A stretch of 48,335 nucleotides of DNA from a virus (taxonomy: Duplodnaviria; Heunggongvirae; Uroviricota; Caudoviricetes): the IMG/VR virus record IMGVR_UViG_3300000292_000047; one strand, written 5' to 3'. Made by a program: the position numbers and the translations under genes. This document shows, one piece after another, positions 2,907-20,710 of this stretch. Positions within the stretch are counted from its first letter, which is position 1. Each line of letters begins with the position of its first letter. The notes under the pieces are model-generated. The model saw only the letters and a program-made list of their open reading frames with translations. It was not told the DNA's origin and did no database searches.

Positions 2907-3050
2907 CATAAAGCAACAAATTACGCGGTAATCGCTTAACGCAGTTTTACTACGTTAAATGAAACACTACACCCAGTTACCACCTAAAACAAGGTTTCCC
3001 CATAAAAAAACCTTCAAAATGTGGTTAATCGATCAATAAAAAAACAATAC

Positions 3051-3326: not shown

Positions 3327-3327
3327 A

Positions 3328-3741: not shown

Positions 3742-3751
3742 GTGTTAGTCC

Positions 3752-4015
3752 TTATCCTGCTGTGCTTTCAACTGATGAGGGGAACAAAATCTTTTCATCA
3801 AACCCTGCATTCATATCATGGACAGCAACACACCAATCCATTGACGAACGATTATCAAGAGCCTCCATGATTTCATCCATGCGGCGCAGGTCATACAGGT
3901 AAATGCTTTTATCGCCAATGGTGTAAAAACCAATTTTTTTCGGTGATGGGCAGCGATCAAGAACGTCCTGTAATTCGTTCAACCATGCCCGTTCTTTTTT
4001 TGTTAAAGTTGCCAT
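3752..4015 (-). CDS. Hypothetical protein (shares MATLTKKE N-terminal motif)
   Basis: 87 aa ORF; start context gccatatcactctcctttga shared with neighbours. Confidence 0.45.
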   Translation of the reverse strand: MATLTKKERAWLNELQDVLDRCPSPKKIGFYTIGDKSIYLYDLRRMDEIMEALDNRSSMDWCVAVHDMNAGFDEKILFPSSVESTAG

Positions 4016-4016
4016 A

Positions 4017-4466
4017 TCACTCTCCTTTGATGCGAATGTTTACAGCCTGACAAGCCTCTTCGAGAACCCAGTCAACAGCGTCTTTCCATGCTCCGGTTTC
4101 GACTGGCGGATTTTCACGCTTAACCTGTTCATAGAAGCGCACTGCTTTAATCAATCCTTCTGGTATCAGTGGCACAGGCGGGGGAGTGAATAACGCCTGA
4201 ATTTCATAGCTCGGCCTGTCGTTGCAATCCTCTTTTGTCGGTACATATTTCCAGTCACCAACCCACGGCTCCCCCTGAGAGTCCGTAACGCCTTTTTTCA
4301 CGTAGCGATATCGCCACGCGACTGGCTCTGCTTCCAACGATGCCAGTGCGATACGAAACACATTGGCAAGCAGACTGCTTGAAGATTGGTTATCGTGCGC
4401 CGGGTCGCTCAGGAAGCCTGTGATGAATGATTTAATCTCCGCACGTTCTTTGGTAATAGTGGTCAT
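4017..4466 (-). CDS. Hypothetical protein, paralogous family member
   Basis: 149 aa; MTTITKERAEI, IALASLEAEPVAW motifs. Confidence 0.5.
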   Translation of the reverse strand: MTTITKERAEIKSFITGFLSDPAHDNQSSSSLLANVFRIALASLEAEPVAWRYRYVKKGVTDSQGEPWVGDWKYVPTKEDCNDRPSYEIQALFTPPPVPLIPEGLIKAVRFYEQVKRENPPVETGAWKDAVDWVLEEACQAVNIRIKGE

Positions 4467-4672
4467 TTATTAATCCTCAAAACTTTATGCCCGGGCGCAA
4501 AAGCACGCGTTTTGTCTTTGCTTATTCGCCAGCCATCCTTGCGCGCCTCTTTTGCACAGCCTGCCCATGACGTACCGATATACTCACCGAAGTCTGGCGA
4601 CTGATATTTACCATTTGTACACTGACGACAATCACAGTAGAGATGCATGGTGTAACTTGCGGCAACAGCCAT
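4463..4672 (-). CDS. Small Cys-rich hypothetical protein
   Basis: ATG at 4670-4672 with AGGAGA SD; 69 aa, HLYCDCRQC...AGC pattern. Confidence 0.4.
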   Translation of the reverse strand: MAVAASYTMHLYCDCRQCTNGKYQSPDFGEYIGTSWAGCAKEARKDGWRISKDKTRAFAPGHKVLRINK

Positions 4673-4673
4673 A

Positions 4674-4865
4674 TCACTCTCCTTTAGTACGCAAGTGGTT
4701 TTTCCAGCGGTTTTGCGCCGCGCTGCGCTTATCTTTGACTCCCTCTCTGGCAATTCCAGAAAATGAAAACAACACCACACGGCGATTGCTAACTCTCAAC
4801 CACTGGCTGGGGTAGCAAAGTCTGTATACACGGGAAATAAGCATCTTTGCTTTACGGTTTTTCAT
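4674..4865 (-). CDS. Small basic hypothetical protein
   Basis: ATG at 4863-4865 with GGGGG SD; stop forms TGATATG junction with next gene. Confidence 0.3.
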   Translation of the reverse strand: MKNRKAKMLISRVYRLCYPSQWLRVSNRRVVLFSFSGIAREGVKDKRSAAQNRWKNHLRTKGE

Positions 4866-5101
4866 CGTTTGCCCCCTGCTTTTCTGCCCTTAACACCATG
4901 CGAGAACCATCATCCAGCTCCCAATTGATTTCACCGCCTTCTGCCATGACAAGATGCCAAACGAGTTGTGCGGCCTCGTTGGTTACATCACAACCGCGAT
5001 CATTGCCTACACGGCGTTTTGTTCCGTCACCTAAATCGCGCATTTTGGCCAACACGATGGTTTTTGATAGCGGTGAAAAACCAAGCTGTAGCCGTGCGGA
5101 A

Positions 5102-5731
5102 TTACTCACTGGTTGCCCCCTGAATACGTTTAAACTCAATTACCCATACCCACGGGTTAGATAGCCAGTTCTCTTGCCCGTAAATACCGCGCCAGATATC
5201 ACCAAAGCCAACGCGATAAACAGCTTCCGGCGGTGTAATCTTGTACGTCGCCGGAGATGCGCCTTCCGCTTTAGCATCTGCCTCGCTCATGTCATGCAGC
5301 CGTTCCACACGCACGTCGGTAATTTCCAGCAAAATACGTGAAGCCCAGCGCGGCATGTGAATCGACGGGGTCCAGCCCTCAGCTGGCTTGCTACTATCTG
5401 AGTAATCAGCCTTGTAATCACACAGTTCAGAAGCCAGAGAGACACCATCTTTGATTTCCTGAATGACATCGTTATCCAGCCAAAAAGCGTTGAATGTTTC
5501 ACGGACCCATATGCGATCACCAACGTTACCGAACGGGCATAAACCATGTTCCGGTGCATCCATAACGTGGGTATAGACACCATTGCGTTTCTTTGTCGGT
5601 TTACGGATAACCAGGCAGTTATCGGCCCTGACATTTTTTACAGGTCGACGAGTCTGCGTCTTCCTGCCTTCGAGGATGGCCCTGACCATCGCATCATTAA
5701 AAATCATGCCGCGCTCTTTCATCTTGCTCAC
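5102..5731 (-). CDS. Hypothetical protein, ASCH-like (start uncertain: GTG 5731 / ATG 5722 / ATG 5707)
   Basis: MIFNDAMVRAILEGRKTQTRR and GDRIWVRETF motifs recalled from ASCH-domain proteins. Confidence 0.45.
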   Translation of the reverse strand: MSKMKERGMIFNDAMVRAILEGRKTQTRRPVKNVRADNCLVIRKPTKKRNGVYTHVMDAPEHGLCPFGNVGDRIWVRETFNAFWLDNDVIQEIKDGVSLASELCDYKADYSDSSKPAEGWTPSIHMPRWASRILLEITDVRVERLHDMSEADAKAEGASPATYKITPPEAVYRVGFGDIWRGIYGQENWLSNPWVWVIEFKRIQGATSE

Positions 5732-6093
5732 TTCAACTCCTCCCGACGACGTTCCTGAAGCTCTAGCATTGCGGCTCGGAAATCCTGCCACCATTCCTCA
5801 TCGGCTACTGGGGTGTTCCGCTCCAGCACCTTGTCCGCATCGGCGATCAGGTTTGCCAGACTCTTGTCTGAAATCTTCGTTACCGGAGTCGTTGGTTGCT
5901 CAACCTGCCCGATAGGTTTTATCGTGCTCAAAAGGAGGCGACGGCGGGAAAGTGGTGCCCCACAACGACGGCCATCTTCCTTGCGATATGTTTCTTTCGG
6001 ACCAACACACCAGGTTGTCGGCGTCTCGCGCAACTTCACTTTTTTCTCACCATCATTGGTAATGATTATTCCGGTATGTGTTTTGATGCTCAT
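5728..6093 (-). CDS. Hypothetical protein
   Basis: 121 aa; ATG 6091-6093; ATGA overlap with upstream gene. Confidence 0.45.
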   Translation of the reverse strand: MSIKTHTGIIITNDGEKKVKLRETPTTWCVGPKETYRKEDGRRCGAPLSRRRLLLSTIKPIGQVEQPTTPVTKISDKSLANLIADADKVLERNTPVADEEWWQDFRAAMLELQERRREELK

Positions 6094-6371
6094 GCCACAG
6101 CCCCTCTCAACGGCTTAACTTTGGCTAATAAGGTGTTAAACAACATGGAGTTAGGATTCATGCCAAATGGCAATTCCGGTTTAGCGGAGTAGTACAGGCA
6201 ACCATTTATTTTCCTGGTTGTTATCTGTCCTTCGGCAACCATGCTTCTCAGTCTGCAACGCATAGAGTTCTGCGACACACCAATGTGCTCCGCGATTACG
6301 TCCACTTTTGAACATGGGTGATCGGTCAGGAAATTAATCACATCTTGGGGGTTAATAATTTTGCGTTTCAT
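6090..6371 (-). CDS. Putative winged-helix DNA-binding protein
   Basis: 93 aa from ATG 6369-6371; HTH-like segment VDVIAEHIGVSQNSMRCRLRSMVAEGQI. Confidence 0.4.
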   Translation of the reverse strand: MKRKIINPQDVINFLTDHPCSKVDVIAEHIGVSQNSMRCRLRSMVAEGQITTRKINGCLYYSAKPELPFGMNPNSMLFNTLLAKVKPLRGAVA

Positions 6372-6416
6372 TGTCGAGGCGTCCTTATACATTTATATAA
6401 ATATATAATTCTATAT

Positions 6417-6438
6417 ACGGCGGGAGACATCCCGCCGT
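6417..6438 (-). terminator. Hairpin downstream of 6449-7516 gene (candidate terminator)
   Basis: acggcggga-gaca-tcccgccgt, 9-bp stem, followed on minus strand by AT-rich tract. Confidence 0.45.
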
Positions 6439-6448
6439 AGGCTTACTG

Positions 6449-7516
6449 TCAGGCTTTCAATAGCGATTCTTTCAGATATCGGGCATCAGCCAGGGCGTTT
6501 GGCGTAATCTTGCGAACCCATGCATTACGGGTTGGACTCCACTTAAAGGCGCGTGATTTAAGCAGCGAACGAATGTTTGCCTCTGGTTTGCCAGGGAAAT
6601 AAAACAGGATGCGGTTATCCTCTGGATCTATCTCCATAGAAAAGCCGTCGTATTCTTCGCGCTGTGCTCCTGTTACAGACTTGACCGATTCAAGCTCCTT
6701 AATACGGCTCTGTAGTCGTTTGATTTCGGCGTTATTGTTGCTCAGTGCGTATGAAGGGAATCCGATGCGCCCACAGAAATCTCCGGCCAGTAACTCTTTG
6801 GCTTCGCTTTCTGTAAACCTGAGATCGATTAATGCAGAAAGCTGCTGTATTTGGTCTTTTTTGTATTTGCGAATGGCCTTATTTGCGGCCTTCATTTTGA
6901 CGTGTGACTTCATGCAGCCTTGCAGCTTACGAAGCAACTTAAATAGCGCATCAGGATCATCAGACGAAATTCCATTACGACCAACACCTGCGGCTTTGCT
7001 CTCGTAGTGTGATGCTTTACTTTCGCATTCAACAAACGCTTTTCTGAATAACGCATCAGCTTTAGACAAACGGCGGCGATGGCCTTTCGCGCTATAATGG
7101 TCAACTAAAATCGGCTGGCCTAACGGGATCACATCCAACAGGTCATGCGCTCGCTTATGCGCTACCGCACCTTCTTTTCTGGCTTTTTCTGCACGAGCAA
7201 TATATCGGGCAAGACGCGCGTTCTGGCGTTCCTGATAGGTGTTTACGTAATCATCTCCGCGCTGCTGCTGTTCAAGCCATGCTTTGCGCAGATCTTCTGT
7301 TACGTCCACCAGCTCCGCAGGGATACAACCAGTTTGGGCTTCATAAGAGTAACCATCCTCATAGATACGCCCATCGTCTTCAACAAAGAAAAAGGTTTCG
7401 TGCTCATCGCTTTTGACCATACGACCATTAACATGGCGTAATAGGTAGCCAGTATCAGTGCTTAACAGGCTGTTAGGGTTGTTGATCCAGTCAGAAATAA
7501 TTACTTGTTTATTCAT
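6449..7516 (-). CDS. Conserved hypothetical protein driven by leader copy B (possibly DUF3560-like)
   Basis: 355 aa from ATG 7514-7516 (MNKQVIISDW) immediately after leader SD ccggagaaatctg; family assignment from memory only. Confidence 0.55.
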   Translation of the reverse strand: MNKQVIISDWINNPNSLLSTDTGYLLRHVNGRMVKSDEHETFFFVEDDGRIYEDGYSYEAQTGCIPAELVDVTEDLRKAWLEQQQRGDDYVNTYQERQNARLARYIARAEKARKEGAVAHKRAHDLLDVIPLGQPILVDHYSAKGHRRRLSKADALFRKAFVECESKASHYESKAAGVGRNGISSDDPDALFKLLRKLQGCMKSHVKMKAANKAIRKYKKDQIQQLSALIDLRFTESEAKELLAGDFCGRIGFPSYALSNNNAEIKRLQSRIKELESVKSVTGAQREEYDGFSMEIDPEDNRILFYFPGKPEANIRSLLKSRAFKWSPTRNAWVRKITPNALADARYLKESLLKA

Positions 7517-7640
7517 CAGATTTCTCCGGTTTAACCAGGGCGGGTATCGCTCGGTTTCGGGTATAACCATAGGAAATTTTTTCCCACCTGTAAAGCACTT
7601 TTTATATAAATCTATAATTATATATTTATAGATTTTCGAT
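7517..7640. repeat. Copy B of ~105-bp promoter/5'-leader repeat
   Basis: Near-identical to 1-118 and 16999-17108. Confidence 0.85.
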
Positions 7641-7685
7641 GTTCCCGATGTCTACACACCATCAAAACAGCTCAAAATGACACTT

Positions 7686-8063
7686 TTACTCTCTTCGCTT
7701 TTTCAAATAGTCGACAACATACGCCCTGGCTTTTGCCAGCTTCCGGCGATACTGTCTGAGGCTAAGAGAAAGGGCGTGGGCTTTATCAATATGCGGTGCA
7801 TTTATGTCGAGGCCCCGAATCTCCCACGCCCCGTATTCAATTCGGACAACCAGCGCCGCAGTCTCATCAACTACCGTGAGGGCCGTCACCGCTCCCTCTA
7901 TACTGGTTTCCAGTGAGTCATTTGGTGCGCCGCCCCCTCCGGTAAACTGGCAGCGCGTAACCATCATCATTTCTAACATCGACGCGAAACCGCTACGGGC
8001 GTTGCAGCCATTGCGCACCCACAGCGCCCATAGCTCAAACAAGCTATCCAGATCGCGTCTCAC
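7686..8063 (-). CDS. Hypothetical protein; possible Q-like antiterminator (weak)
   Basis: 125 aa, GTG start; LFELWALW motif loosely resembles Q-family N-termini; sits immediately upstream of leader copy B. Confidence 0.3.
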   Translation of the reverse strand: MRRDLDSLFELWALWVRNGCNARSGFASMLEMMMVTRCQFTGGGGAPNDSLETSIEGAVTALTVVDETAALVVRIEYGAWEIRGLDINAPHIDKAHALSLSLRQYRRKLAKARAYVVDYLKKRRE

Positions 8064-8066
8064 TGT

Positions 8067-8399
8067 TCAGATCTCCCGTATCGTGACGGGATAAAGCGCC
8101 TCTACCTGCTTTTTCTTCATGATGTAGACGTCTGTTCGCACACCTTTAGTGTCGACACAATCAATCGTCCCATCGTCATAAAACACCATGAAATCAAGTT
8201 TATAAACGACACCACCTGGCAGATGAAAAGGCACCTGCATAAGAAACGTCACAACGCGGCCAGCTTTTCTCAGTAGCTTCAGTTCGCAGTAGTAATCAGC
8301 CTCTTTTTTGCTATCAAAAGCGATATCATCGACAACCGTTTTTTTATTGCCGTATTTGCTTTTCCTGGTCGCTGGTTTGCGAAAGCCGGTATATCTCAT
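8067..8399 (-). CDS. DUF1064-like phage protein
   Basis: 110 aa; SKYGNKKTVVDDIAFDSKKEADYYCELKLL motif typical of this lambdoid nin-region family. Confidence 0.55.
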   Translation of the reverse strand: MRYTGFRKPATRKSKYGNKKTVVDDIAFDSKKEADYYCELKLLRKAGRVVTFLMQVPFHLPGGVVYKLDFMVFYDDGTIDCVDTKGVRTDVYIMKKKQVEALYPVTIREI

Positions 8400-8800
8400 T
8401 TGGTATCCCCTGGTACTTCACCAAGACTAAGATCAAACCCAATTTCGTCTTTAACTGACTGCGGCAACAGCTCCCACGTCTGCGCACACAAAAATTCATC
8501 TGTGCCATAACGCTCAACAAAGCGAGCACAATTACTCAGGGGAGGGTGACGAACGGCAATATGCGGAGGCACACGCCCACCACCAGGCACAACACCGCGA
8601 TGATGTGGTGCGCACAACCCAAAGCTATGGAAGTGGCAATTCTCATCAACGCTGCCGTAATCAGGATCGTGATGTAGCTCCGTCCACAGCTCTGGATTCT
8701 CAATTTCACGGCCATCAATAATGCAAGCTATGCAACCCACGTGAGTGAGCACCGCTTGTATATAAAGTTTCTCTTTCTTCGTTGGTGTACGTCCGTTCAT
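8396..8800 (-). CDS. Cys/His-rich putative zinc-binding protein
   Basis: 134 aa; CIACIIDG...ELHHDP...HFHSFGLCAPHHRG. Confidence 0.45.
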   Translation of the reverse strand: MNGRTPTKKEKLYIQAVLTHVGCIACIIDGREIENPELWTELHHDPDYGSVDENCHFHSFGLCAPHHRGVVPGGGRVPPHIAVRHPPLSNCARFVERYGTDEFLCAQTWELLPQSVKDEIGFDLSLGEVPGDTK

Positions 8801-9033
8801 CAGCGCCCCTTACCATTGATAAAGAGGTTGAACTCGTTGATTAACTGGACATACATGCTTCTGGCCGCGTAGTTCTTTGCCAGCTCTTTACGGGATGAGA
8901 TCCCGCAAAACTCACGCAGAATCACAGAGGCCTCAGAACTGTTTGAAACGTTCTTCCCTGTTTTACTGGTCAGAAAGCGCCAGAATTGGGGATTCTGGCA
9001 ATGCATCGCAGCACCGCGAACATAACTACTCAT
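8800..9033 (-). CDS. Hypothetical protein
   Basis: 77 aa, ATG verified, operon context. Confidence 0.4.
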   Translation of the reverse strand: MSSYVRGAAMHCQNPQFWRFLTSKTGKNVSNSSEASVILREFCGISSRKELAKNYAARSMYVQLINEFNLFINGKGR

Positions 9034-9545
9034 TGATGGCCCCCGTCATTTCTGGTGCTTTTCACCGTGCGGCTTCTTAAAAACCTGCCATCACGAACAA
9101 CAGACACTTCTCGTTTACCCAACCTCATTTCACGGCGGTAACATTCAGAAAATGCCTCGTCCGGCATCATATAAATGCGACGCTTCGCCTCCGTATCCAG
9201 AAGGGAACGGCTTGGGGTTACATATAAGAACGACTCATCAATAGGGACAAAACCACGAGCAAGAATTGCTGGCAGAATACCAGGAAGAACGCAGAAAACA
9301 GCTCCACGATGCAGCAACATCTGGTACTCCATGACCTCCGTAATCCCCGTAACGACTGTTACGGTGTCACGTCTGTTACGGCTGGCAACCAGTCGCTGCA
9401 CACCTCCAATTTTCTGCTCTACAGATAGACGTTTGCTATCGTTATCAATATGATCGATAACAAATCCTTTAATCGTTTGATCAAGGTAGTGCACCACCTG
9501 CGATTGAATCTGGTGATTATCACCAAAGAAGGCCAGAATCATCAT
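9030..9545 (-). CDS. Hypothetical protein
   Basis: 171 aa, ATG verified, ATGA coupling with upstream gene. Confidence 0.45.
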   Translation of the reverse strand: MMILAFFGDNHQIQSQVVHYLDQTIKGFVIDHIDNDSKRLSVEQKIGGVQRLVASRNRRDTVTVVTGITEVMEYQMLLHRGAVFCVLPGILPAILARGFVPIDESFLYVTPSRSLLDTEAKRRIYMMPDEAFSECYRREMRLGKREVSVVRDGRFLRSRTVKSTRNDGGHQ

Positions 9546-10036
9546 TCCTCAAGCCTCCCAAGTGCTGAACGCCGGGCGTTGCTAATCTCCTTATGAATCA
9601 GCTCGATATCGCTGGAATCTTTATTCTTAAGCTCCAGCACGGTAATCGCATCACGAACCTCTGAAACGGTTACGTGTGAGTGTTTCCAGCGAGCAATGAA
9701 TCGCGGACCGCGTAGATTGCAACGCTCCGCAGGCATCCCCAGCTCAGAGAAAACCGCTTTCAGCCTTGATAAGCAGTTAACAGGGAGATTCCCTTTGATC
9801 TTGTTCTGCCGAACCGATGTGCCATCGCTACGCTGGCGCTGACGTTCGGCAAAATCTGCCGCCCATTGCTGGACGTTAATCCGGCCTTCCGAATACGCCA
9901 CCAGCAGCGTCAGGTTATCCGCACGAGGGAATCTCTCGAAGCGATACCAGGCACCAATCAGTGATGACGTAAAGCCAAACTTTCTGGCAACACCAATTTG
10001 GCCTCCATTTTCGTCAACCCACTCCTGAAAGGTCAT
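9542..10036 (-). CDS. Putative early regulator (first gene divergent from repressor; Cro/CII position)
   Basis: 164 aa; ATG 10034-10036 with GGAG SD; N-terminal HTH-like GVARKFGFTSSLIGAW. Confidence 0.35.
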   Translation of the reverse strand: MTFQEWVDENGGQIGVARKFGFTSSLIGAWYRFERFPRADNLTLLVAYSEGRINVQQWAADFAERQRQRSDGTSVRQNKIKGNLPVNCLSRLKAVFSELGMPAERCNLRGPRFIARWKHSHVTVSEVRDAITVLELKNKDSSDIELIHKEISNARRSALGRLEE

Positions 10037-10054
10037 TTAACGAACTCCAGTTAA

Positions 10055-10172
10055 ACCACGATATGTGGTATTAAAACCACATATCGTGAGTTTTTCAATG
10101 GGCGAAACAAAAAATAACCTTCTATTTGTGGTCCACCTCTCGTCTTACCATGTGAAAACCACTAAATGTGGT
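10055..10172. promoter_or_regulatory. Immunity operator region with three ACCAC-N5-GTGGT-type sites between divergent genes
   Basis: accacgatatgtggt (10055-10069), accacatatcgtgag (10076-10090), accactaaatgtggt (10158-10172). Confidence 0.6.
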
Positions 10173-10209
10173 AATGTATAAATAACCCACCATTCACGAT
10201 TGATGAGAC

Positions 10210-10866
10210 ATGAAAAGCAACGACGAGAACATCAAGAAAGAAATAGGTCTGCGCATTCAGACTCTACGGAAACAATCCGGCATGACTGCCGGAGATCTCC
10301 AGCAAGTCACTGGAATAGGCTTAAGCACCTTGCAGAACTATGAGGCCGGATTAAGACAACCATCTATACCTGCCATCAAGAAAATCGCGCACGCCCTGAA
10401 AGCATCAGCGCCTTATATCGCGTGCTTAACAGATAACCCGTTCCCACCCCAGAATACTAACGCTCCTGTTATTCCTGGGCTTGTAGCTATAAAAAATGAC
10501 ATAGCATCGCACGCCGGAGAAAAGCCAGTGCTGGCGATAGAACAGGAGATTCTACGAAGCAAGAACATCAACCCATCGTCTCTGTCAGTTCTCCAGAGCA
10601 ACGATGAGTTAATGTCACCAACAATATCCCCTGGCTCCCAAGTCCTGATTAATACAGACGATACAGAGATTCATGAGGGGATCTATGCCCTTGAAGACAG
10701 AAATGGCCTGGTTGTTTTGAGGCACTGTAGAGTCATACCGGGTGACAATGCTGTTATGCTGTCAACCGAAAGGGATGCTGAAATGAACACTAAGCATCTG
10801 AATAACGAGGAATTTAAGCGTTATAAAGTTCTTGGCCGCGTAGTTAGTGTTGTCAACTGGTTATGA
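10210..10866 (+). CDS. CI-type phage repressor (XRE HTH + S24 LexA-like peptidase domain)
   Basis: 218 aa; N-terminal HTH (LQQVTGIGLSTLQNYEAG), C-terminal S24-like region; divergent from early operon. Confidence 0.75.
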   Translation: MKSNDENIKKEIGLRIQTLRKQSGMTAGDLQQVTGIGLSTLQNYEAGLRQPSIPAIKKIAHALKASAPYIACLTDNPFPPQNTNAPVIPGLVAIKNDIASHAGEKPVLAIEQEILRSKNINPSSLSVLQSNDELMSPTISPGSQVLINTDDTEIHEGIYALEDRNGLVVLRHCRVIPGDNAVMLSTERDAEMNTKHLNNEEFKRYKVLGRVVSVVNWL

Positions 10867-10908
10867 TACACAGCACGGCGAAAGCCGTGCATTTCTACGC
10901 TCAAAAAA

Positions 10909-10923
10909 ACCACATTTTGTGGT
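10909..10923. promoter_or_regulatory. Fourth operator-like palindrome downstream of repressor gene
   Basis: accacattttgtggt, same ACCAC-N5-GTGGT architecture; preceded by GNRA-loop hairpin 10872-10889. Confidence 0.5.
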
Positions 10924-10958
10924 TTTGACAACATGTAAAAGTATAAAAGAGGCTACGC

Positions 10959-11333
10959 ATGGAATTACATACAGCCAATAAAAACGAAACTCTGATCACT
11001 GCTGGAATCGAAATCCAAGCGTTGAACATAGCGATTGAGTGTATGTTATGCCAAATCATTGATAATGAGAAAGATATCGACTGGATAGAATCTATCCTTC
11101 ATCTGGCATCAGAACAAAAAGTCTGCCTCAAAACGGCCTTACAATACGATGTGCCAGCGATATCGAAGCTGTGCCAGCCATTGATGGCATATAACAGGGC
11201 TATTATTTCTGTATGCCTCATGATTCTTGATGAAAACACCCCTCTTAGCGACCGCTCAGAAGCTGCTCTCACCCTCTCACGTAAACAGCGACAGCTAGCA
11301 AATCAACTGATATCAACGATAGCTGACCTCTGA
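10959..11333 (+). CDS. Hypothetical protein
   Basis: 124 aa; AAGAGG SD; followed by hairpin aagcgggc-taac-gcccgctt. Confidence 0.45.
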   Translation: MELHTANKNETLITAGIEIQALNIAIECMLCQIIDNEKDIDWIESILHLASEQKVCLKTALQYDVPAISKLCQPLMAYNRAIISVCLMILDENTPLSDRSEAALTLSRKQRQLANQLISTIADL

Positions 11334-12650: not shown

Positions 12651-12674
12651 TAAAAAAGGCCCCCGAAGGGGCCT
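12651..12674. terminator. Hairpin terminator, usable on minus strand (bidirectional candidate)
   Basis: aggcccc-cgaa-ggggcct perfect stem; A-run on plus gives U-run on minus. Confidence 0.6.
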
Positions 12675-12679
12675 AATCG

Positions 12680-12802
12680 CTACTTGCTGCTAATGTTTAT
12701 CGTCACATTCAGAGCGTTATCAGTAATCTTCCAACCCTCCCCATGTGGCGTAAACAAAGCCCCAGTAACAACGATAAAAATACACATACAGTATTTTTTC
12801 AT
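12680..12802 (-). CDS. Small hydrophobic peptide (40 aa), candidate type I toxin-like or exported peptide
   Basis: MKKYCMCIFIVVTGALFTPHGEGWKITDNALNVTINISSK; ATG inside track ORF 12680-12862; terminator immediately downstream. Confidence 0.3.
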   Translation of the reverse strand: MKKYCMCIFIVVTGALFTPHGEGWKITDNALNVTINISSK

Positions 12803-13200
12803 TGTATGGCCCTTACAGGCCGTTTCACGGCATCCCCACCGACGAAAACAACGCGAGAGCAAGCACGGCTGCTTGTGCTTGCATGTACGGCAACGGAGAA
12901 TCCTCCCCTAAAGTCGGTGCCCGGGTGCGAATCGGCGGGAAGGTCCACAGGTATTTTACGATTATTTTAAGATTAGTAATAGGAAAGAAATTAAACGAAA
13001 AAACTCGTTTATTTTCACAAAATCAGTAACCTACCCACAATCTGTGAGTTTGCAGGCACAACAAGAATCACAATTTTTTGAAGCATAATAGTGGACTATT
13101 ATTACCTTTTGGGTAAAATTAACTTGCTGCTTGTGCTTGCGTGGTTGTTTATACAACGACGTTATGCTGAAAGGACCGCGAATCCGATCAGCACGAAAGA

Positions 13201-13227
13201 ACCGTCCTCAATAGGGCGGTTTTTTTG
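13201..13227 (+). terminator. Intrinsic terminator (plus)
   Basis: accgtcc-tcaata-gggcggt then T7. Confidence 0.6.
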
Positions 13228-13309
13228 TTTCTGCCTACCAATAAACCCACGCTATGTGGTTGTCTCTGTTAAAATCCCGCCGTATTGACATGAATGCGCC
13301 ATTGGTGGA

Positions 13310-13392
13310 CACTTTCCGAGCCGTAGCAAAATCTACGGTCGGGATTGGAACCCCGTAGACACAATGGCGCATACCGCGTTAGCGGTTTTTTT
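13310..13392 (+). ncRNA. Candidate small structured RNA ending at intrinsic terminator, upstream of antirepressor operon
   Basis: TTGACA at 13285-13290; hairpins ccgtag/ctacgg; terminator accgc-gtta-gcggt + T7 (13373-13392); no ORF. Confidence 0.3.
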
Positions 13393-13558
13393 ATGCGTAA
13401 AGCACTGCTACACCCAAATTATGGTGGGGCGTGCGGGGGAGTCGTAAGACTCGCCGGTTCGTCATTGTGTCCGGTAGTTCCAACCCTGCACGTCTCACCA
13501 CCCAATGATTGGAACCTGACGGTGGTGAGTATCCTTAACCTTTAAGGGAATCATCACA

Positions 13559-13750
13559 ATGACAAACCTACCCCATGACTATTACGTCAACCTCGTAAAG
13601 ATCCTTCTCAAGAAAGCCTCATACGCCGATAAATTCCGCCTGGCTGAAATCATCGAGCGCGAAGCTATGCGCATCGCCAGCAACGATAACGCTGTTTCTG
13701 ACGCAAAAATCTCCCTCGTAACCAAAGTTGTTATGGGAGGTGCAAAATGA
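13559..13750 (+). CDS. Small protein translationally coupled to antirepressor
   Basis: 63 aa; stop overlaps ant start (ATGA). Confidence 0.45.
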   Translation: MTNLPHDYYVNLVKILLKKASYADKFRLAEIIEREAMRIASNDNAVSDAKISLVTKVVMGGAK

Positions 13751-14898
13751 AAACGCTTCCGATCGTTAACACCCTACAGCCTATCCTGCATAATCAGATT
13801 CCAGTAATCACAACTGAGCTACTCGCCCGCCTTTATGGAACAGAAGCAATCCGTATACAGCAAAATCACCATGAAAATAAAACTCGGTTCATTGAGGGGA
13901 AGCACTTCTTTAAAGCTGTTGGTGATGAACTCAAAAATTTGCGACTAGTTTTAAACGAGTCACAAAATGAGGTGCAAATTTCCCCCAAAACTCGCTCTCT
14001 CATCCTCTGGACAGAACGCGGGGCTGCACGTCACGCCAAAATGCTTGAAACTAACCAAGCGTGGGATGTGTTCGAACGGCTGGAAGACTGCTATTTCAAC
14101 CAGAACGCGCAAACGGCCGCGACCGTTACCGTCTCGCCAAACAATCCTCGTGAGGTTGTCGATACGCTCAACGCCAAACCGATGTTTTACATTAAGGTGT
14201 GCAACAACGAGCCACTCACAACCTCAGCCGATGTTGCCCAGGCATTCAGCACCACAAACAATTCCATCGTTATGGCCATCGATGCGTTACGCATTCCTCG
14301 TACAGCTGCGGCACGTCATTTCTTTAAAGAGCAACGACCGCTGGAAGGAAGCGACCGCGAAATAACAATCTATCGCATGACAAAAGACGGATTTACCTTG
14401 CTCATGGAAAGTATCGACGGTCCAGGCGTGAAAGATATCAAGCTGGCCTACATTGAAGCCTTTAACGCTATCAGCAGCGTGTTAAAAACACAGTACGAGC
14501 GTGATCTGGCTAAACGACTGTACCAGGAAAAAACGATTATCCGCGCGGCAACAGAGCATAATCGGCTATTAACAGAACCGAAATACAGGAAGGAACTAAT
14601 CAAGGAGTTTGACAAGGCAACAGGGAAAACCAAAGCGGCGCTAAATCTGCCAGCAATGACTCAGGAAAATGTGATATCAGCCTTACTTCTTGATCTGCTC
14701 AGAAACGCCAGAGCACTTATCAGCTTTGACGAAAACCTGAATCCTCAGCTCAAGCTACTACCACCGACAGGCAAAGTAGTCGACCAGGCTGATCACAACA
14801 GCATACTCAGCGTACTGGATGCAAACCTGCCAGCCAGGACACTACAGGATCTGATAAAAACATGTGCTGATAAGCTGGCACAGAAGAGCAGACCATAA
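13747..14898 (+). CDS. Antirepressor-type regulatory protein (ORF6N-like N-terminus + Rha domain)
   Basis: 383 aa; ITIYRMTKDGFTLLMESIDGPGVKDIKLAYIEAFN matches Rha pattern; GGAGG SD. Confidence 0.7.
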   Translation: MKTLPIVNTLQPILHNQIPVITTELLARLYGTEAIRIQQNHHENKTRFIEGKHFFKAVGDELKNLRLVLNESQNEVQISPKTRSLILWTERGAARHAKMLETNQAWDVFERLEDCYFNQNAQTAATVTVSPNNPREVVDTLNAKPMFYIKVCNNEPLTTSADVAQAFSTTNNSIVMAIDALRIPRTAAARHFFKEQRPLEGSDREITIYRMTKDGFTLLMESIDGPGVKDIKLAYIEAFNAISSVLKTQYERDLAKRLYQEKTIIRAATEHNRLLTEPKYRKELIKEFDKATGKTKAALNLPAMTQENVISALLLDLLRNARALISFDENLNPQLKLLPPTGKVVDQADHNSILSVLDANLPARTLQDLIKTCADKLAQKSRP

Positions 14899-14902
14899 CT
14901 AC

Positions 14903-14930
14903 AAGGGGCTACGGCCCCTTACTCTTTTCT
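14903..14930 (+). terminator. Intrinsic terminator after antirepressor gene
   Basis: aaggggc-tacg-gcccctt followed by actcttttctc. Confidence 0.65.
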
Positions 14931-15636
14931 CTCTTATCAACGCCAGAGACTTTCTGAAAATCCTTTCGAATAGCGTCAGCATCACGCGCTAAGCCCATAC
15001 TGGAACGTGTCGCCATATGACGAAAATGATCAACTGCCGGAAACAAAGAAATAATGGACCCAATAGCTTGCAGCAAACTCGCTTTTCTACGCATCATAAT
15101 TCCACCATAACCGATAACCACCCTTCAGACACAACCCCCCCTCCCCCCATACAGGGTGCCCTTTACCGGAGTTCCGGCCCCTTCTCAAAAGCATCAAAAA
15201 AAGCTCGAGATCGAGTACCGGAACTCATGCCACCAGATAGCTCCACATCGTTTCCAATGCTTCGCCGCCGTGTGCGCCCTGTGGCCCACAATCATGCCAT
15301 TGGTCGTCTGATATACCTTCTTCTGCTCATAGAGCACAGGCGAGTTGTCGCACTCCTACCTTTCTCAGACTCGACTTAGTTTAGATCGCTGTTCCTGGCT
15401 TGCGTCAGCACACTTTCCCCTTGTACGCATACCCGCGCGCCACTTCGCCCAAAAACACCGAACCCAACGAAGTGGCAAAGACAACGACGCGAGCGTGAGT
15501 CTGAAATGGGCACCAGTAAAAAAGGGGTTGCAGGCGCAAAAAGATTTGATTATCTTTAGACGCAAGAAAGCCGCCCCAATCAAGAGGTGTCTTTTTAAAT
15601 CCAGCCTACCAAGCAAGATTTAAATTTCAGACTGAA

Positions 15637-15660
15637 AACCGCCCGGCAAGGCGGTTTTTG
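15637..15660 (+). terminator. Intrinsic terminator closing an ORF-poor region
   Basis: ccgcc-cggcaa-ggcgg + TTTTT. Confidence 0.55.
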
Positions 15661-15719
15661 TCTTTCTGGCGCTTACATTACACCACCATAAAACGATCCG
15701 TAAAGGATCATTTGATCCC

Positions 15720-15980
15720 TTATTCCAATTCTGACGACACTTTAACCTTTTCCCATACAAGGGTTTGCAGCCTTAACAGAATCGCATCTTTATCAAGGTG
15801 TGAAAGATCCTTAACCATATCGTCAAACGACAGAACGCGAATGGCCATCTCAATGACCCTCGGCGGCTCACCCTTCTCATATCGCTTATATGTAGCCAAC
15901 GATATCCCAAACTCTTCGGCGGCTCGCTCCTGCGTCCAGTTCATCCCACGACGCCATAATTTCAATTCGTAACCCGTCAT
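15720..15980 (-). CDS. XRE-family HTH transcriptional regulator
   Basis: 86 aa; LKLWRRGMNWTQERAAEEFGISLATYKRYEKG; GAGGA SD. Confidence 0.65.
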   Translation of the reverse strand: MTGYELKLWRRGMNWTQERAAEEFGISLATYKRYEKGEPPRVIEMAIRVLSFDDMVKDLSHLDKDAILLRLQTLVWEKVKVSSELE

Positions 15981-18620: not shown

Positions 18621-18999
18621 AACCATCTCCATTTATTATATCTACGATGGTAGGAAATCTTTTCCTATGTGGCAATAGAAATTTACTACATTGCGTATAA
18701 GACAAGTTTTCTATGTCTAATAGGAAATGATGTTTCTTACATTTTATCGCGTTCTGATGGCTACTGTGTGCGTATTTATCGACGTTTATTGATAAGGCTC
18801 GCCCCTTCCTCCTGCAAAGCCCGGCCGTAGGCCTTATTTCGGCCTTATATAAATTGATTTTGTATAGTTCGAAACGTGCCGTTTCGAAAAGGATGATCAG
18901 GCTGCTCCATGCCTCCGGCAAGTGCCGGAGGAGGTATATTTGAGCGTAGCGACTCGAACCGGCGCGAGCTTTAGCTCGCTGCAAGGGCGAACATATTCA

Positions 19000-19260
19000 C
19001 AGGCAAAGCCTGCGTAAGTTAAATAAAGAAAGTCTTAATAAAAGAAAGTGATTTTGCATTTATTTGTTTAGTGCATCTATTATAAAAAACCATTTGCATA
19101 TACATATCAGAACTGTGGATAACTTTATTAGCCGATGCCTGTAAAGGCGATATTTTTGCTGTGTTCAGGTTTAGAGAAAATTAATTTAGATTGTTTTTTG
19201 AACAGATATTTTATTGCGACGTAGATAATCCTCCGGTAAAACCGGATTCATCATTCAGGT
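19000..19260. promoter_or_regulatory. Candidate replication origin downstream of repA (AT-rich, DnaA box)
   Basis: Perfect DnaA box TTATCCACA on minus strand at 19114-19122; AT-rich flanks. Confidence 0.5.
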
Positions 19261-19263: not shown

Positions 19264-20112
19264 TTAATGTTGGAGTGATTTCCAGGTCTTTCTTAACCTG
19301 TTATAACGCTGCTCAACGAGGGATCGTAAATATGCAAGGTCAGCACCAGGATACATGCCATCAGCAAATTCCTGACTAACCTCTCTGGTGATTTGATGAC
19401 GAAGTTCGGCCTCTCCCTTTTCCCGAACAAGACGCGCAGCTCTCTCCGCTGCTTTCTGTTTTGCCTTTATCTCTCTGGCCGTCTTCCTCTGACGCCATAC
19501 ATTCTCCATCTGCTCCTGAATAACAATACGCTTATAATCAGCCTCCGTTATCGCTTTTTTAAGCCGTTCGCTATTCTTCGCATTGAAGTAATTAAGTTTC
19601 TGGCTAACCGCACGTCTCCATGCTTGTTCAGTAATACCAACGGTTTCCAGCAGTTGATCACGAATCTCTATTTTCGCTGGCCAATACTGTTTATTCACCC
19701 GATCCCAGCGACGTTCATAATCAATAAAACCTAACGCTTTCAGTTGCGACAACGCCCTTGTACAGCGCGTTATAGACTTGTTCCCAGCTTCGGATACGGT
19801 AGACAGGCCGCAAAAATCAGCCAACGCCTCAGCACTAGCCAGAACCCGCTTAGAAATGATGTTTACATGGTGCAAAATCGCAGCGATCACAGCATTAATC
19901 GCCCGACGACGATGCTCGTTTATCCGGCGCTTCCGCTCTGACGGTTGATTAACGTAGAACGCAACCTCACACGTAAGATCACGCCCATTAATGCGCTGTA
20001 AAGCATCAGATAACACCAGCGGCAGCTTGTGCGTATGGTGCTTTGGAGGCTGGAACTCCGGCGACAAATTACAAACGTAAGCTGAACGTAGAGACGGCAT
20101 TGGTCTATCCAT
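19264..20112 (-). CDS. repA: IncFII-type (RepFIIA-like) replication initiator RepA; in-frame upstream ATG at 20244 possible
   Basis: RRRAINAVI and GLSTVSEAGNKSITRCTRALSQLKALGFIDYE align by eye with R100 RepA1 (RRRAIDALL, GLATESAAGKLSITRATRALTFLSELGLITYQ); ATG 20110-20112. Confidence 0.7.
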   Translation of the reverse strand: MDRPMPSLRSAYVCNLSPEFQPPKHHTHKLPLVLSDALQRINGRDLTCEVAFYVNQPSERKRRINEHRRRAINAVIAAILHHVNIISKRVLASAEALADFCGLSTVSEAGNKSITRCTRALSQLKALGFIDYERRWDRVNKQYWPAKIEIRDQLLETVGITEQAWRRAVSQKLNYFNAKNSERLKKAITEADYKRIVIQEQMENVWRQRKTAREIKAKQKAAERAARLVREKGEAELRHQITREVSQEFADGMYPGADLAYLRSLVEQRYNRLRKTWKSLQH

Positions 20113-20156
20113 ATGTTCGCTCTTGCGTCCACGGAAAACCAACGTATAATGGGAGT

Positions 20157-20237
20157 TGTCGAGGCGCCCATGGATTGTTGTTGTTGGTTTTCCGTGGATG
20201 TCGCAAGAAGCCCGCAGATTTATCTGCGGGCTTTTTG
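20157..20237 (+). ncRNA. CopA-like antisense RNA countertranscript to repA leader
   Basis: TTGCGT-N16-TATAAT at 20123-20150; strong terminator gcccgcaga-ttta-tctgcgggc + T5 at 20210-20236. Confidence 0.55.
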
Positions 20238-20710
20238 TTTCCATATCTGGTCACTTTCCAACCAGACACCCACAATCATAACCACGTTACGTGGTTTTAA
20301 GAGAACTCTACCACAACACTTTCGGTCATGCACGAAGTCTCTCACTGATCGAACGATAATCCACCAGTAAAAGGATCTAAATTGGATCTCGTTTTGCGAG
20401 CATCATACTACTGGCCTAACTCCAGTCAATGATTCCCAGCCAGAAACCTGCGGTAAACTCATCGTTCAGCAATATGCTGTCCGGCTTCAAAGATAAGGTG
20501 ACATCATCCCTTAACAGCGCGGCCAGTTCAGTTAAAGGGCTGTTCTGATTTAATGCTGGCCACTCATACCTGGTAATAAGTGGTCAGTCTTAACACTCAC
20601 CATTTGATTGCACCCGTGTTGACGATTTGTTACTGGATATCAGACACGCTGGATAGCCAGTAGAAACATACCATTAAAATTATTACAATAATTGGTCACA
20701 TGATTATCTT

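What the first reader, a model, noticed from the sequence alone, without database searches (positions are those of the whole stretch)
15122..15660. ~540-bp GC-rich ORF-poor region with long-range hairpins ending in a terminator
Between the antirepressor terminator and the HTH gene there is no convincing ORF (track ORFs are low-complexity, lack an SD and overlap each other). The DNA has several perfect stems (gagttccgg / ccggaactc about 40 nt apart; ccacttcg / cgaagtgg) and ends in an intrinsic terminator at 15637-15660. This is consistent with a non-coding RNA, an origin or a recombination site.
Basis: seen in the sequence. Interest (0 to 1): 0.45.

Follow-up and report, generated by a model that had tools for sequence, protein, structure and literature searches.

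The report
Divergent ColE1-type origin in a phage-plasmid
The "empty" 600 bp next to the HTH gene most likely form a protein-free replication origin of the ColE1 type (a long primer RNA held in check by a short antisense RNA), so diverged that standard typing tools miss it and sitting, unusually, in a 48-kb phage-plasmid that also has an IncFII RepA replicon.

Summary
In detail: there is no credible ORF, both stems are perfect, and the terminator is real. The unit is larger than reported, about 15120-15719. The long RNA lies on the minus strand, not the plus strand.

The window is an E. coli phage-plasmid. Between the E. coli and Salmonella lineages this module is 88-90% identical, while neighbouring genes are 69-80%. 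A 69%-identical copy sits in an unrelated phage contig that otherwise shares only a distant ParA.

No ORF is conserved. 158 predicted pairs show 23 compensatory changes, against 1-5 in the slid controls. G·U pairs outnumber A·C 205 to 8, which points to a minus-strand RNA.

The architecture matches ColE1. A ~547-nt RNA II-like transcript follows a GATC-flanked promoter. A ~105-nt antisense RNA I-like transcript has three stem-loops and uses the reported terminator. Profile HMMs link both ends of the module to ColE1-family origins (E from 1e-8 to 9e-4; no shuffle reaches the real scores). Rfam RNAI and MOB-suite do not recognise it.

An almost invariant G6AG7 tract, close to the human mitochondrial CSB II primer-forming motif, lies just past the predicted start of DNA synthesis.

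Transcription and origin activity are inferred, not shown.

The parts
15120..15719 (-). Whole conserved non-coding module: a candidate minimal ColE1-type replicon, from the primer promoter to about 13 nt past the G-tract.
   Evidence: Homology with Salmonella plasmids, L015 and L008 begins and ends here. It is 88.6-90.4% identical between lineages, against 69-80% for flanking genes. At least five unrelated downstream flanks begin within about 13 nt of the G-tract.
15695..15717 (.). Cluster of three Dam sites, GATC-N4-GATC-N7-GATC, the last two bracketing the -35 of the primer promoter.
   Evidence: Unique in the window; 0.01 expected by chance. ColE1-like plasmids L072 and L073 have the same spacing at the RNA II promoter, and ColE1 itself has GATT-N4-GATC-N7-GATC. 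The N7 pair is conserved in L008.
15675..15704 (-). Inferred RNA II-like (primer) promoter: -35 TTTACG (15704-15699), 18-nt spacer, -10 TAATGT (15680-15675). An alternative -10 is TGTAAT with an extended TG. Start about 15666-15670.
   Evidence: Read from the sequence. It aligns with ColE1 TTGAGA-17-TAATCT in the profile alignments. The simple promoter scan did not flag it. No transcript data.
15122..15668 (-). Inferred RNA II-like preprimer, about 547 nt if it runs to the end of conservation and about 508 nt to the predicted RNA-to-DNA transition.
   Evidence: Consensus fold of 158 pairs, 97.5% of cells paired, 23 pairs with compensatory changes against 1-5 in slid controls, 0 of 500 shuffles as high. 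The G·U excess selects this strand. No conserved ORF.
15528..15556 (+). Inferred RNA I-like promoter: -35 TTGCAG (15528-15533), 17-nt spacer, -10 TATCTT (15551-15556).
   Evidence: Read from the sequence. L008 keeps TTGCGC-17-TATCTT. The -10 and start region lie inside the longest block invariant across all three lineages, about 28 nt. Weak match to consensus; not flagged.
15560..15665 (+). Inferred RNA I-like antisense RNA, about 105 nt: a 6-7 nt 5' tail and three stem-loops, the last being the terminator. It is fully complementary to the 5' end of the long RNA.
   Evidence: The same three-hairpin fold appears in all eight representatives of the three lineages, on both strands. The terminator was found. 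The 3' end coincides with the inferred start of the minus-strand RNA.
15633..15660 (.).
   Evidence: It is part of the 5' block that matches ColE1-family profiles; ColE1-like L077 has the same stem, AAAACCGCC TTGCAG GGCGGTTTT.
15594..15624 (.). Stem-loop II, the variable middle hairpin of the antisense target.
   Evidence: Arms 15594-15601 and 15617-15624. The upper stem differs in sequence but stays paired in every lineage: C-G changes to G-C, and L008 is 2 bp longer (and direct reading).
15566..15594 (.). Stem-loop III of the antisense target. The stem is invariant and the loop varies between lineages.
   Evidence: (helix 3: 9 pairs, never varying). Loop sequences are CUUGAUU, CUCAAUU, CUUAAAU and CUUAUGU.
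15439..15476 (-). Hairpin with a conserved 20-nt loop (UUGGGUUCRGUGUUUUUGGR) and a fully covarying stem.
   Evidence: Helix 11 has 6 of 13 pairs with changes on both sides; GCCACUUCG/CGAAGUGGC in the window becomes UUUUACCG/CGGUAAAA in L008.
15245..15260 (-). Small hairpin with a GGAAAC loop that aligns with the ColE1 hairpin CCAGGGGGAAACGCCUGG.
   Evidence: Helix 20 covaries: 3 pairs with changes on both sides. Profile alignment to ColE1.
15169..15226 (-). Last long hairpin before the predicted origin. L008 carries a 22-nt insertion in its loop.
   Evidence: helix 21 has 18 pairs. It aligns with the ColE1 ori-proximal segment GGGTTTCGCC...GAGCGTC...TTTTTGTGATGCT...GGGGGGCGGAGCC.
15158..15167 (-). 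Predicted RNA-to-DNA transition (oriV). RNA-sense GGUAAAG|GGC aligns with ColE1 GGAAAAA|CG.
   Evidence: Profile alignment, with shuffle control. This is inference by homology only, and the exact site is uncertain.
15135..15148 (-). G6AG7 tract in the RNA and non-template strand (plus strand CCCCCCCTCCCCCC).
   Evidence: Unique in the window; 0.00 expected even allowing one mismatch. G6AG7 in 23 of the 25 sequences that span it and G6AG8 in the other 2. It nearly matches human mtDNA CSB II, GGGGGAGGGGGGGTTTG (PMC4176368).
15122..15134 (-). Conserved tail UUGUGUCUGAAGG, after which homology ends in every lineage.

Best explanation
The interval is the core of a roughly 600-bp, protein-free, RNA-primed theta replication origin of the ColE1 type, carried by a family of about 48-kb enterobacterial phage-plasmids.

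Proposed mechanism (inferred unless marked otherwise):
1. A promoter flanked by GATC sites at 15675-15717 fires leftwards and makes a ~510-550-nt structured preprimer (RNA II-like). The structure is shown by covariation; the transcript itself is not shown.
2. The 3' part of this RNA stays hybridised to the template. It is processed near 15160-15167, or ends at the G6AG7 tract at 15135-15148, to give a 3'-OH that host DNA polymerase I extends.
3. It pairs with the first ~105 nt of the nascent preprimer and blocks primer maturation, which sets copy number and incompatibility.
4. The G6AG7 tract may reinforce or terminate the R-loop through an RNA:DNA G-quadruplex, as CSB II does in human mitochondria.

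The phage-plasmid also has an IncFII RepA replicon and no other replication gene. This module is therefore a second replicon. Whether it serves the plasmid state or lytic growth is unknown.
For: Selection on non-coding sequence:
- 88.6-90.4% identity between the E. coli and Salmonella lineages, against 69-80% for every flanking gene.
- A 69% copy in contig L008, which otherwise shares only a 31%-identical ParA.
- No ORF is conserved, and tblastx matches hop between frames.

Structured minus-strand RNA:
- 23 pairs with compensatory changes against 1-5 in slid controls, and 0 of 500 shuffles as high.
- G·U versus A·C cells are 205 versus 8; structure conservation index 0.77 versus 0.68.

ColE1 architecture (family features as defined in PMC8683028):
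- About 547 nt from the inferred start to the end of conservation, against about 550 in ColE1.
- A ~105-nt antisense RNA with a 5' tail and three stem-loops in all lineages. Its 3' end meets the preprimer start.
- In the antisense target, stems are invariant or covary while loops differ between lineages. That is the pattern expected of specificity determinants.

Sequence homology to ColE1 origins:
- A profile of 9 diverse ColE1-like origins hits 15719-15634 on the minus strand at E = 3.1e-5, and hits the same place and strand in four homologues. None of 3000 shuffled modules exceeds 7.6 bits, against 15.5 for the real one.
- Reciprocally, the module profile hits the 5' block of 6 of 9 ColE1-like origins at E from 1.3e-8 to 6e-4.
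- It also hits, colinearly, the 130 nt next to the origin in 8 of 9 (ColE1 itself E = 9.4e-4). None of 3000 shuffles reaches 7.7 bits.
- The GATC-N4-GATC-N7-GATC spacing is identical to that in ColE1-like plasmids L072 and L073 and is unique in the window.

Context:
- No iterons or other notable direct repeats.
- The only replication protein found in the window is an IncFII RepA 3.6 kb away.
- RNA-based origins of plasmid prophages have a precedent in mycobacteriophages (PMC7157519).
Against: - No transcript, primer or replication data exist. Both promoters match the consensus only moderately, and the simple scan did not flag them.
- The central ~350 nt have no detectable similarity to ColE1. 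A plain local alignment of the whole module against ColE1 is not significant: 31 of 300 shuffles score as well.
- The promoter block alone is not significant. Part of the 5' score comes from a terminator-like hairpin of a common type; a similar hairpin elsewhere in the window scores 8.7 bits.
- Rfam RNAI scores 17-18 bits against a gathering score of 47, and its strand differs between homologues.
- MOB-suite types no replicon in these plasmids.
- The aligned origin site has AAA where ColE1 has AAAAA.
- No conserved primosome-assembly site lies downstream.
- The element already has a RepA replicon and a ParA. A classic multicopy origin fits awkwardly with these unless it is tightly repressed or used only in lytic growth.
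- Only three lineages exist in the collections searched, so the covariation rests on few independent events.
- Cumulative GC skew shows no inflection here. That is uninformative for a phage genome.
Confidence: 0.68

Rival explanations
1. A structured regulatory non-coding RNA with a cis-antisense partner, descended from a ColE1 origin or resembling one, that no longer primes replication. It might be a long leader controlling read-through into the variable downstream cargo genes, or a trans-acting RNA used in phage-host conflict.
For: Structure and conservation are shown, but origin activity is not. In three flank types a gene in the same orientation, with a ribosome-binding site, starts 50-70 nt after the G-tract: a small ORF in the window, a membrane-protein gene in L003, L006 and L015, and a zinc-ribbon ORF in L008. 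The element already has RepA.
Against: The downstream genes are unrelated to one another. In L004 and L048 there is none, only a terminator right after the conserved tail. There is no conserved 3' terminator, as a discrete trans-acting RNA would need. Homology to ColE1 covers exactly the primer promoter and the region next to the origin. Conservation ends within about 13 nt of the G-tract, as for a minimal origin.
Confidence: 0.2
2. A DNA-level site, not an RNA gene: an origin of transfer, a recombination or resolution site, or a single-strand initiation signal whose hairpins form in DNA.
For: Inverted repeats and strong conservation without coding capacity. The left end of the module is a recurrent junction with at least five different flanks.
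Against: The G·U versus A·C asymmetry and the wobble intermediates fit RNA pairing on one strand. There is a promoter-plus-terminator layout. The plasmids are typed non-mobilizable, and no relaxase was seen in the records examined. A published survey did not find known oriTs in phage-plasmids (PMC10123127). The terminase genes lie about 25 kb away. The region is homologous to ColE1 origin RNA regions.
Confidence: 0.05
3. A type I toxin-antitoxin locus of the hok/sok kind: a long folded mRNA for a tiny toxin, repressed by a short antisense RNA.
For: The layout is similar: a structured RNA of about 0.5 kb with long-range pairing, plus a ~100-nt antisense RNA over its 5' end. A ryfA-like RNA lies 2.2 kb away. 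By my own knowledge, not checked here, ryfA is the mRNA of the TimP toxin in Salmonella. If so, such loci occur on this element.
Against: No short ORF keeps its start, frame and stop across the three lineages. Indels of 1, 2, 3 and 22 nt break every frame.
Confidence: 0.03
4. A decayed protein-coding gene (pseudogene), or a real gene missed by annotation.
For: ORFs of 83-120 aa can be drawn on both strands.
Against: These ORFs mostly have TTG or GTG starts and overlap one another. None is conserved. tblastx matches switch frames every 20-40 codons. The region is more conserved than the real genes around it. Substitutions are compensatory in stems.
Confidence: 0.02

Closest known systems
ColE1-like (ColE1/pMB1/p15A family) RNA II / RNA I replicons
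   Same: - Length from primer promoter to origin is about 550 nt.
- A ~105-nt antisense RNA with a 5' tail and three stem-loops, the last being its terminator, ends at the primer start.
- GATC sites bracket the -35 with identical spacing.
- Stem-loop I is nearly identical to that of some ColE1-like plasmids.
- The 130 nt next to the origin align colinearly, including a GGAAAC-loop hairpin, a U-rich-loop hairpin and a G-run-CGGA...GG-A-run motif.
- No Rep protein and no iterons.
(family features from PMC8683028.)
   Different: - The central ~350 nt are not alignable.
- Rfam RNAI is far below threshold, and MOB-suite types no replicon.
- AAA replaces AAAAA at the aligned origin.
- There is an extra G6AG7 tract 12-26 nt downstream.
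- No Rop, no mob genes, no conserved primosome-assembly site.
- The host replicon is a 44-52-kb phage-plasmid with ParA and an IncFII RepA, not a small multicopy plasmid.
Human mitochondrial CSB II (primer formation for H-strand replication)
   Same: The motif is almost the same. It is G6AG7-UUG here and GGGGGAGGGGGGGTTTG in mtDNA. It sits in the transcript and non-template strand at the point where a transcript is thought to become a replication primer. [quoted passage not shown]
   Different: There is no evolutionary link, so this is convergence at most. No test was done here. By the ColE1 alignment the tract lies just downstream of the transition site, not at it.
RNA-based origins of extrachromosomal mycobacteriophage prophages (RedRock, Alma and others)
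   Same: A plasmid prophage that carries a partition system and a nearby non-coding RNA region needed for replication, with no Rep protein for that origin (PMC7157519).
   Different: The hosts are Actinobacteria. No sequence comparison was made. Those phages lack repA, whereas this element has both RepA and the RNA module.
R-loop origins of lytic phages (T4 oriF/oriG, T7 primary origin); own knowledge
   Same: A transcript retained as an R-loop primes leading-strand synthesis in a phage genome.
   Different: Those origins have no antisense copy-control RNA and no similarity to ColE1. Not tested here.

Membership tests
ColE1-like RNA II/RNA I replicons | [quoted passage not shown] | tested here: met
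   The conserved non-coding block is 15120-15719. It is about 547 nt from the inferred start to the end of conservation. No conserved ORF and no notable direct repeats. Definition from PMC8683028.
ColE1-like RNA II/RNA I replicons | [quoted passage not shown] | tested here: met
   Met in silico only. A ~105-nt plus-strand unit with a candidate promoter, a 5' tail, three hairpins and a terminator is conserved in all lineages. No transcript was observed.
ColE1-like RNA II/RNA I replicons | Sequence match to a profile of ColE1 origins (the published criterion is a whole-origin HMM at E < 0.001 plus manual inspection) | tested here: met
   I used my own 9-sequence profile, not the published one. 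It gives E = 3.1e-5 at 15719-15634 on the minus strand. The reciprocal search gives E from 1.3e-8 to 6e-4 for the 5' block and 9.4e-4 for the ori-proximal block. Only about 220 of 600 nt align.
ColE1-like RNA II/RNA I replicons | Match to Rfam RNAI (RF00106) at the gathering score | tested here: not met
   17-18 bits against 47. The strand differs between homologues, and the score comes mostly from the terminator hairpin.
ColE1-like RNA II/RNA I replicons | An oriV motif: a G-run about 20 nt upstream of an A-run where RNase H makes the primer end | tested here: inconclusive
   GGGGCCGGAACUCCGGUAAAG|GGC aligns with ColE1 GGGGGGCGGAGCCUAUGGAAAAA|CG. The G-run and the A-run are both shorter, and a second, longer G6AG7 tract follows.
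ColE1-like RNA II/RNA I replicons | Replication depends on host RNA polymerase, RNase H and DNA polymerase I | not testable with these tools
   Needs cloning and tests in polA and rnhA hosts.
Mitochondrial CSB II-type G-quadruplex primer site | A G5AG7-type tract in the transcript and non-template strand at the transcription-to-replication switch | tested here: met
   G6AG7 at 15135-15148 on the minus strand. It is unique in the window and present as G6AG7 in 23 of the 25 sequences that span it (G6AG8 in the other 2). Motif from PMC4176368. Only the presence of the sequence was tested.
Mitochondrial CSB II-type G-quadruplex primer site | G-quadruplex-dependent transcription termination and a stable R-loop | not testable with these tools
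   Needs in vitro transcription comparing K+ with Li+ and GTP with 7-deaza-GTP.
Type I toxin-antitoxin (hok/sok-like) | A conserved short toxin ORF in the long RNA | tested here: not met
   No ORF of 25 aa or more keeps its position and frame in all three lineages.
IncFII RepA/CopA replicon | The antisense RNA and origin lie next to and control repA | tested here: not met
   The IncFII_repA gene is at 19264-20244 on the minus strand, 3.6 kb away, with three to four unrelated genes (including a HigBA-like pair) in between. Of the 14 kb of L008 that could be read, only the module and a distant ParA match the window; the rest of that contig was not examined.
Any Rfam 15 family | Covariance-model match at the gathering threshold within 15100-15730 | tested here: not met
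   Nothing at gathering score. Only sub-threshold hits driven by the terminator.

The most novel reading that the evidence does not exclude
The module is the replicon this phage uses for lytic or high-copy replication, in a tailed phage that encodes no replication protein other than a low-copy IncFII RepA. It would be a ColE1-derived, antisense-gated primer RNA whose 3' end is fixed not only by RNase H but by a mitochondrial CSB II-like G6AG7 hybrid G-quadruplex. That would be a bacterial counterpart of mitochondrial primer formation, and a way for a virus to replicate with host RNA polymerase and Pol I alone.
Probability: 0.2. Interest if true: 0.8.

Novelty: new member of a known kind. Interest (0 to 1): 0.6.

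Why it matters
- It would extend the ColE1 replicon family, best known from small multicopy plasmids and cloning vectors, into tailed phage-plasmids of E. coli, Salmonella, Klebsiella and Yersinia hosts. The sequence is too diverged for Rfam RNAI or MOB-suite typing to see it. These elements are currently listed with no typed replicon.
- It points to past exchange between ColE1 plasmids and phage-plasmids.
- It raises a testable question: why does a phage with a RepA/ParA plasmid lifestyle keep a second, protein-free origin under stronger purifying selection than its neighbouring genes? Lytic amplification is one possible answer.
- The module is a candidate for a new vector origin with its own incompatibility specificity.
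- The nearly invariant G6AG7 tract offers a bacterial system for studying G-quadruplex and R-loop primer formation, so far described for mitochondria.

Tried and rejected
- Rfam at gathering and at permissive thresholds on the window, L008 and L003 gave only sub-threshold hits driven by the terminator (Phe leader, RNAI, AgrB), with inconsistent strand.
- I looked for more distant homologues. Four conserved-block patterns in viral contigs, one in genome contigs and one in metagenome contigs returned the same three lineages plus chance hits. blastn against phages and plasmids gave the same result.
- I tried to extend contig L008 to see whether it has a Rep gene. The collection returned the same 14-kb stretch.
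- Plain Smith-Waterman alignment of the module against ColE1 was not significant. Homology appeared only with profiles.
- A promoter-only ColE1 sub-profile was not significant on its own.
- A sub-profile of the ColE1 origin-proximal region was only weakly positive in the forward direction: E = 0.04 and 0.21. The reciprocal search was clearer.
- The 32-kb deletion derivative pCREC-544_3 keeps both repA and the module, so it cannot separate their roles.
- A plasmid copy-number paper had no supplement held as text.
- Literature searches found no description of this plasmid family's non-coding region and no paper on the Yersinia phages vB_YpM_39, 41 and 44.
- The protein-coding, type I toxin-antitoxin, oriT or recombination-site and IncFII CopA readings were considered and set aside, as detailed under rival explanations.
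Full report
CONTEXT. The window is an enterobacterial phage-plasmid of about 48 kb. The 821 bases around the finding are at least 95% identical to 72 complete E. coli genomes, in 75 of 76 places on plasmids of about 46-57 kb. They also match three Yersinia pestis phages and 62 PLSDB plasmids from Escherichia, Salmonella and Klebsiella, all typed non-mobilizable. Annotated relatives carry myovirus tail, capsid and terminase genes, ParA, a HigBA-like toxin-antitoxin pair and a plasmid RepA. In the window RepA belongs to Pfam IncFII_repA (19264-20244, minus strand). To the left of the finding lies a P1-like immunity region: isrK, C4 antisense RNA and an ORF6N/Rha antirepressor.

OBSERVATION. The ORFs in the interval are short, overlap one another and mostly start with TTG or GTG. 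No public record annotates a gene under 15122-15660. Both strands fold about 3 sd better than dinucleotide shuffles.

CONSERVED BUT NOT CODING. All collections searched hold only three lineages:
- an E. coli-type lineage (97-100% identical);
- a Salmonella-type lineage (L003-L005, L014, L015, L049; 88-90%);
- one distant copy, L008, in an IMG/VR contig (69%).

Between the first two lineages the module is 88.6-90.4% identical. The HTH gene beside it is 72-73%, parA 80%, higBA 79%, the 126-aa ORF 69% and repA 75-78%. L008 is a different phage: the 14 kb held for it run through a 541-aa ORF (which I take to be a terminase, not checked against a domain library) and a 704-aa tail-fibre-like gene into the module. 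It shares nothing else with the window except a 31%-identical ParA.

Homology starts just after the HTH stop codon, at about 15719. It ends about 13 nt beyond a G-tract, at about 15122, in every lineage. Beyond that point there are at least five unrelated flanks. No ORF of 25 aa or more keeps its frame and ends in all three lineages, and indels of 1, 2, 3 and 22 nt occur.

STRUCTURED RNA ON THE MINUS STRAND. RNAalifold on eight representatives, in minus-strand sense, gives 158 pairs with 97.5% of cells paired. Twenty-three pairs show changes on both sides, against 1-5 when the partners are slid by 1-3 columns and 6.9 ± 1.9 in shuffles (0 of 500 as high). Compensatory changes occur both in the Salmonella lineage and in L008. 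The hairpin at 15439-15476 has a completely exchanged stem and a conserved 20-nt loop.

One-sided changes almost always give G·U in minus-strand sense: 205 G·U cells against 8 A·C cells. The consensus energy is -160 kcal/mol for the minus strand and -112 for the plus strand. This asymmetry is partly built in, because the structure was predicted in that sense. The wobble intermediates at covarying pairs still support the minus strand.

ARCHITECTURE. Reading the minus strand:
- Three GATC sites (15717-15714, 15709-15706, 15698-15695) bracket a candidate -35, TTTACG. An 18-nt spacer and the -10 TAATGT follow, and transcription would start near 15668.
- The first ~105 nt form three stem-loops.
- On the plus strand a candidate promoter, TTGCAG-17-TATCTT (15528-15556), would start an RNA near 15560-15564. 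That RNA ends at the terminator at 15633-15660.
- This ~105-nt RNA folds into a short 5' tail plus three stem-loops in every lineage.
- Its -10 and start region lie in the longest invariant block of the module.
- In this antisense-overlap region the stems are invariant or covary, while the loops differ between lineages.

A preprimer of about 550 nt and an antisense RNA of about 100 nt with three stem-loops are the defining layout of ColE1 replicons (PMC8683028). Both promoters are inferred from sequence only. The simple scan did not flag them.

HOMOLOGY TO ColE1. Three direct tests failed:
- Rfam RNAI scores only 17-18 bits, with inconsistent strand between homologues.
- blastn of the module against PLSDB finds only the phage-plasmid family.
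- A plain local alignment to ColE1 is not significant.

Profiles gave a different answer. I fetched ColE1 (NC_001371) and eight diverse ColE1-like origins. A profile of these nine hits the window at 15719-15634 on the minus strand with E = 3.1e-5. It hits the same place and strand in L003, L004, L008 and L015. None of 3000 shuffled modules exceeds 7.6 bits, against 15.5 for the real one. The alignment covers the GATC-flanked primer promoter and stem-loop I. ColE1-like plasmids L072 and L073 have the same GATC-N4-GATC-N7-GATC spacing, and this pattern is unique in the window.

Two cautions apply to that 5' hit. The promoter part alone is not significant. A similar hairpin elsewhere in the window scores 8.7 bits.

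The reciprocal search is stronger. The module profile hits the 5' block of six ColE1-like origins at E from 1.3e-8 to 6e-4. Separately and colinearly, it hits the last ~130 nt before oriV in eight of nine (ColE1 itself E = 9.4e-4). None of 3000 shuffles of that ColE1 segment reaches 7.7 bits; the best is 4.6. In that alignment:
- the ColE1 hairpin CCAGGGGGAAACGCCUGG corresponds to window 15260-15245, which covaries here;
- ColE1 GGAAAAA|CG, the RNA-to-DNA transition, corresponds to GGUAAAG|GGC at 15167-15158.

The central ~350 nt do not align.

THE G-TRACT. GGGGGGAGGGGGGG lies at 15148-15135 in minus-strand sense, 12-26 nt past the aligned transition site. It is unique in the window. It appears as G6AG7 in 23 and G6AG8 in 2 of the 25 sequences that span it. 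It nearly matches human mitochondrial CSB II (GGGGGAGGGGGGGTTTG). [quoted passage not shown] Whether it acts that way here is untested. The fold also predicts that it pairs with a C/U-rich segment at about 15529-15515, but this helix is poorly kept in L008 (helix 5). I leave it open.

INTERPRETATION. The best-supported reading is a highly diverged ColE1-type, RNA-primed, antisense-controlled origin.
- Shown: conservation, absence of coding capacity, conserved RNA structure, strand preference, and profile-level homology to both ends of ColE1 origins.
- Inferred: the two transcripts and their ends, primer formation, copy control, and any role for the G-tract.

The phage-plasmid has an IncFII RepA with its own neighbourhood 3.6 kb away. 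No helicase, primase, polymerase or other initiator was found among its larger ORFs. The module would therefore be a second replicon of unknown role.

The rivals are less likely. They are a non-replicative regulatory RNA, a DNA-level site, a type I toxin-antitoxin and a pseudogene, each treated under rival explanations. The first cannot be excluded without experiments.

NOVELTY. The mechanism is the known ColE1 one. What is new:
- the lineage, which Rfam and MOB-suite do not see;
- its home in tailed phage-plasmids beside a RepA replicon;
- the CSB II-like tract.

RNA-based origins of plasmid prophages have been reported only for mycobacteriophages among the papers I found (PMC7157519). My searches found no description of this one.

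Noticed in passing
window 12652-12948 (-): Full-length match to Rfam ryfA (141.8 bits, E = 1.8e-36) on the phage-plasmid. By my own knowledge, not checked here, ryfA in Salmonella is the mRNA of the small toxin TimP. This may therefore be a plasmid-borne type I toxin-antitoxin.
   Followed up: no
window 13320-14898 (+): A P1/P7-like immunity cassette: isrK (13320-13392), C4 antisense RNA (13417-13505), a 63-aa ORF (13559-13750) and an ORF6N + Rha antirepressor (13747-14898). This cassette varies or is replaced between relatives. In L001 an IS21 sits between it and the module.
   Followed up: partly
window 14909-15121 (-); L003, L006, L015, L004, L048, L008 downstream of the module: The DNA just past the module is a swap point. 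The window has a 62-70-aa ORF with no Pfam match. Other relatives have a membrane-protein gene, a zinc-ribbon ORF, or nothing but a terminator. All these junctions fall within about 13 nt of the G-tract.
   Followed up: partly
L063 (metagenome contig), equivalent to window 15352-15373: A natural 22-nt deletion inside the module removes one side of two predicted helices. It is either a tolerated change in the non-alignable middle of the RNA or a dead copy.
   Followed up: no
window 13175-13230 (-): A second hairpin, AAACAAAAAAACCGCC...GGACGGTTCTTTCG, resembles ColE1 stem-loop I (8.7 bits, E = 0.0034 with the ColE1 profile). It lies between ryfA and isrK and is probably just a terminator.
   Followed up: no
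window 1009-1084 (-): A tRNA-Met (CAT) gene on the phage-plasmid.
   Followed up: no
window 114-701 (-) and 42531-46411 (-): An MT-A70-family methyltransferase (Pfam family of adenine methyltransferases), plus three ParB_N-domain proteins, one of them fused to a methyltransferase domain. This may be relevant because the primer promoter is bracketed by GATC sites.
   Followed up: no
window 18650-19260 and 19264-20244 (-): An IncFII-family RepA with an ORF-poor stretch downstream of it that probably holds its own origin. MOB-suite nevertheless assigns no replicon type to these plasmids.
   Followed up: partly
L008 (IMGVR_UViG_3300036772_000110) 1-11122 and 13275-13981: The only distant carrier of the module looks like a different kind of phage-plasmid: large virion proteins, a 541-aa ORF I take to be a terminase (not checked), a 704-aa tail-fibre-like protein and a ParA. 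Only 14 kb of its 39.9 kb could be read, so whether it has any Rep gene is unknown.
   Followed up: partly
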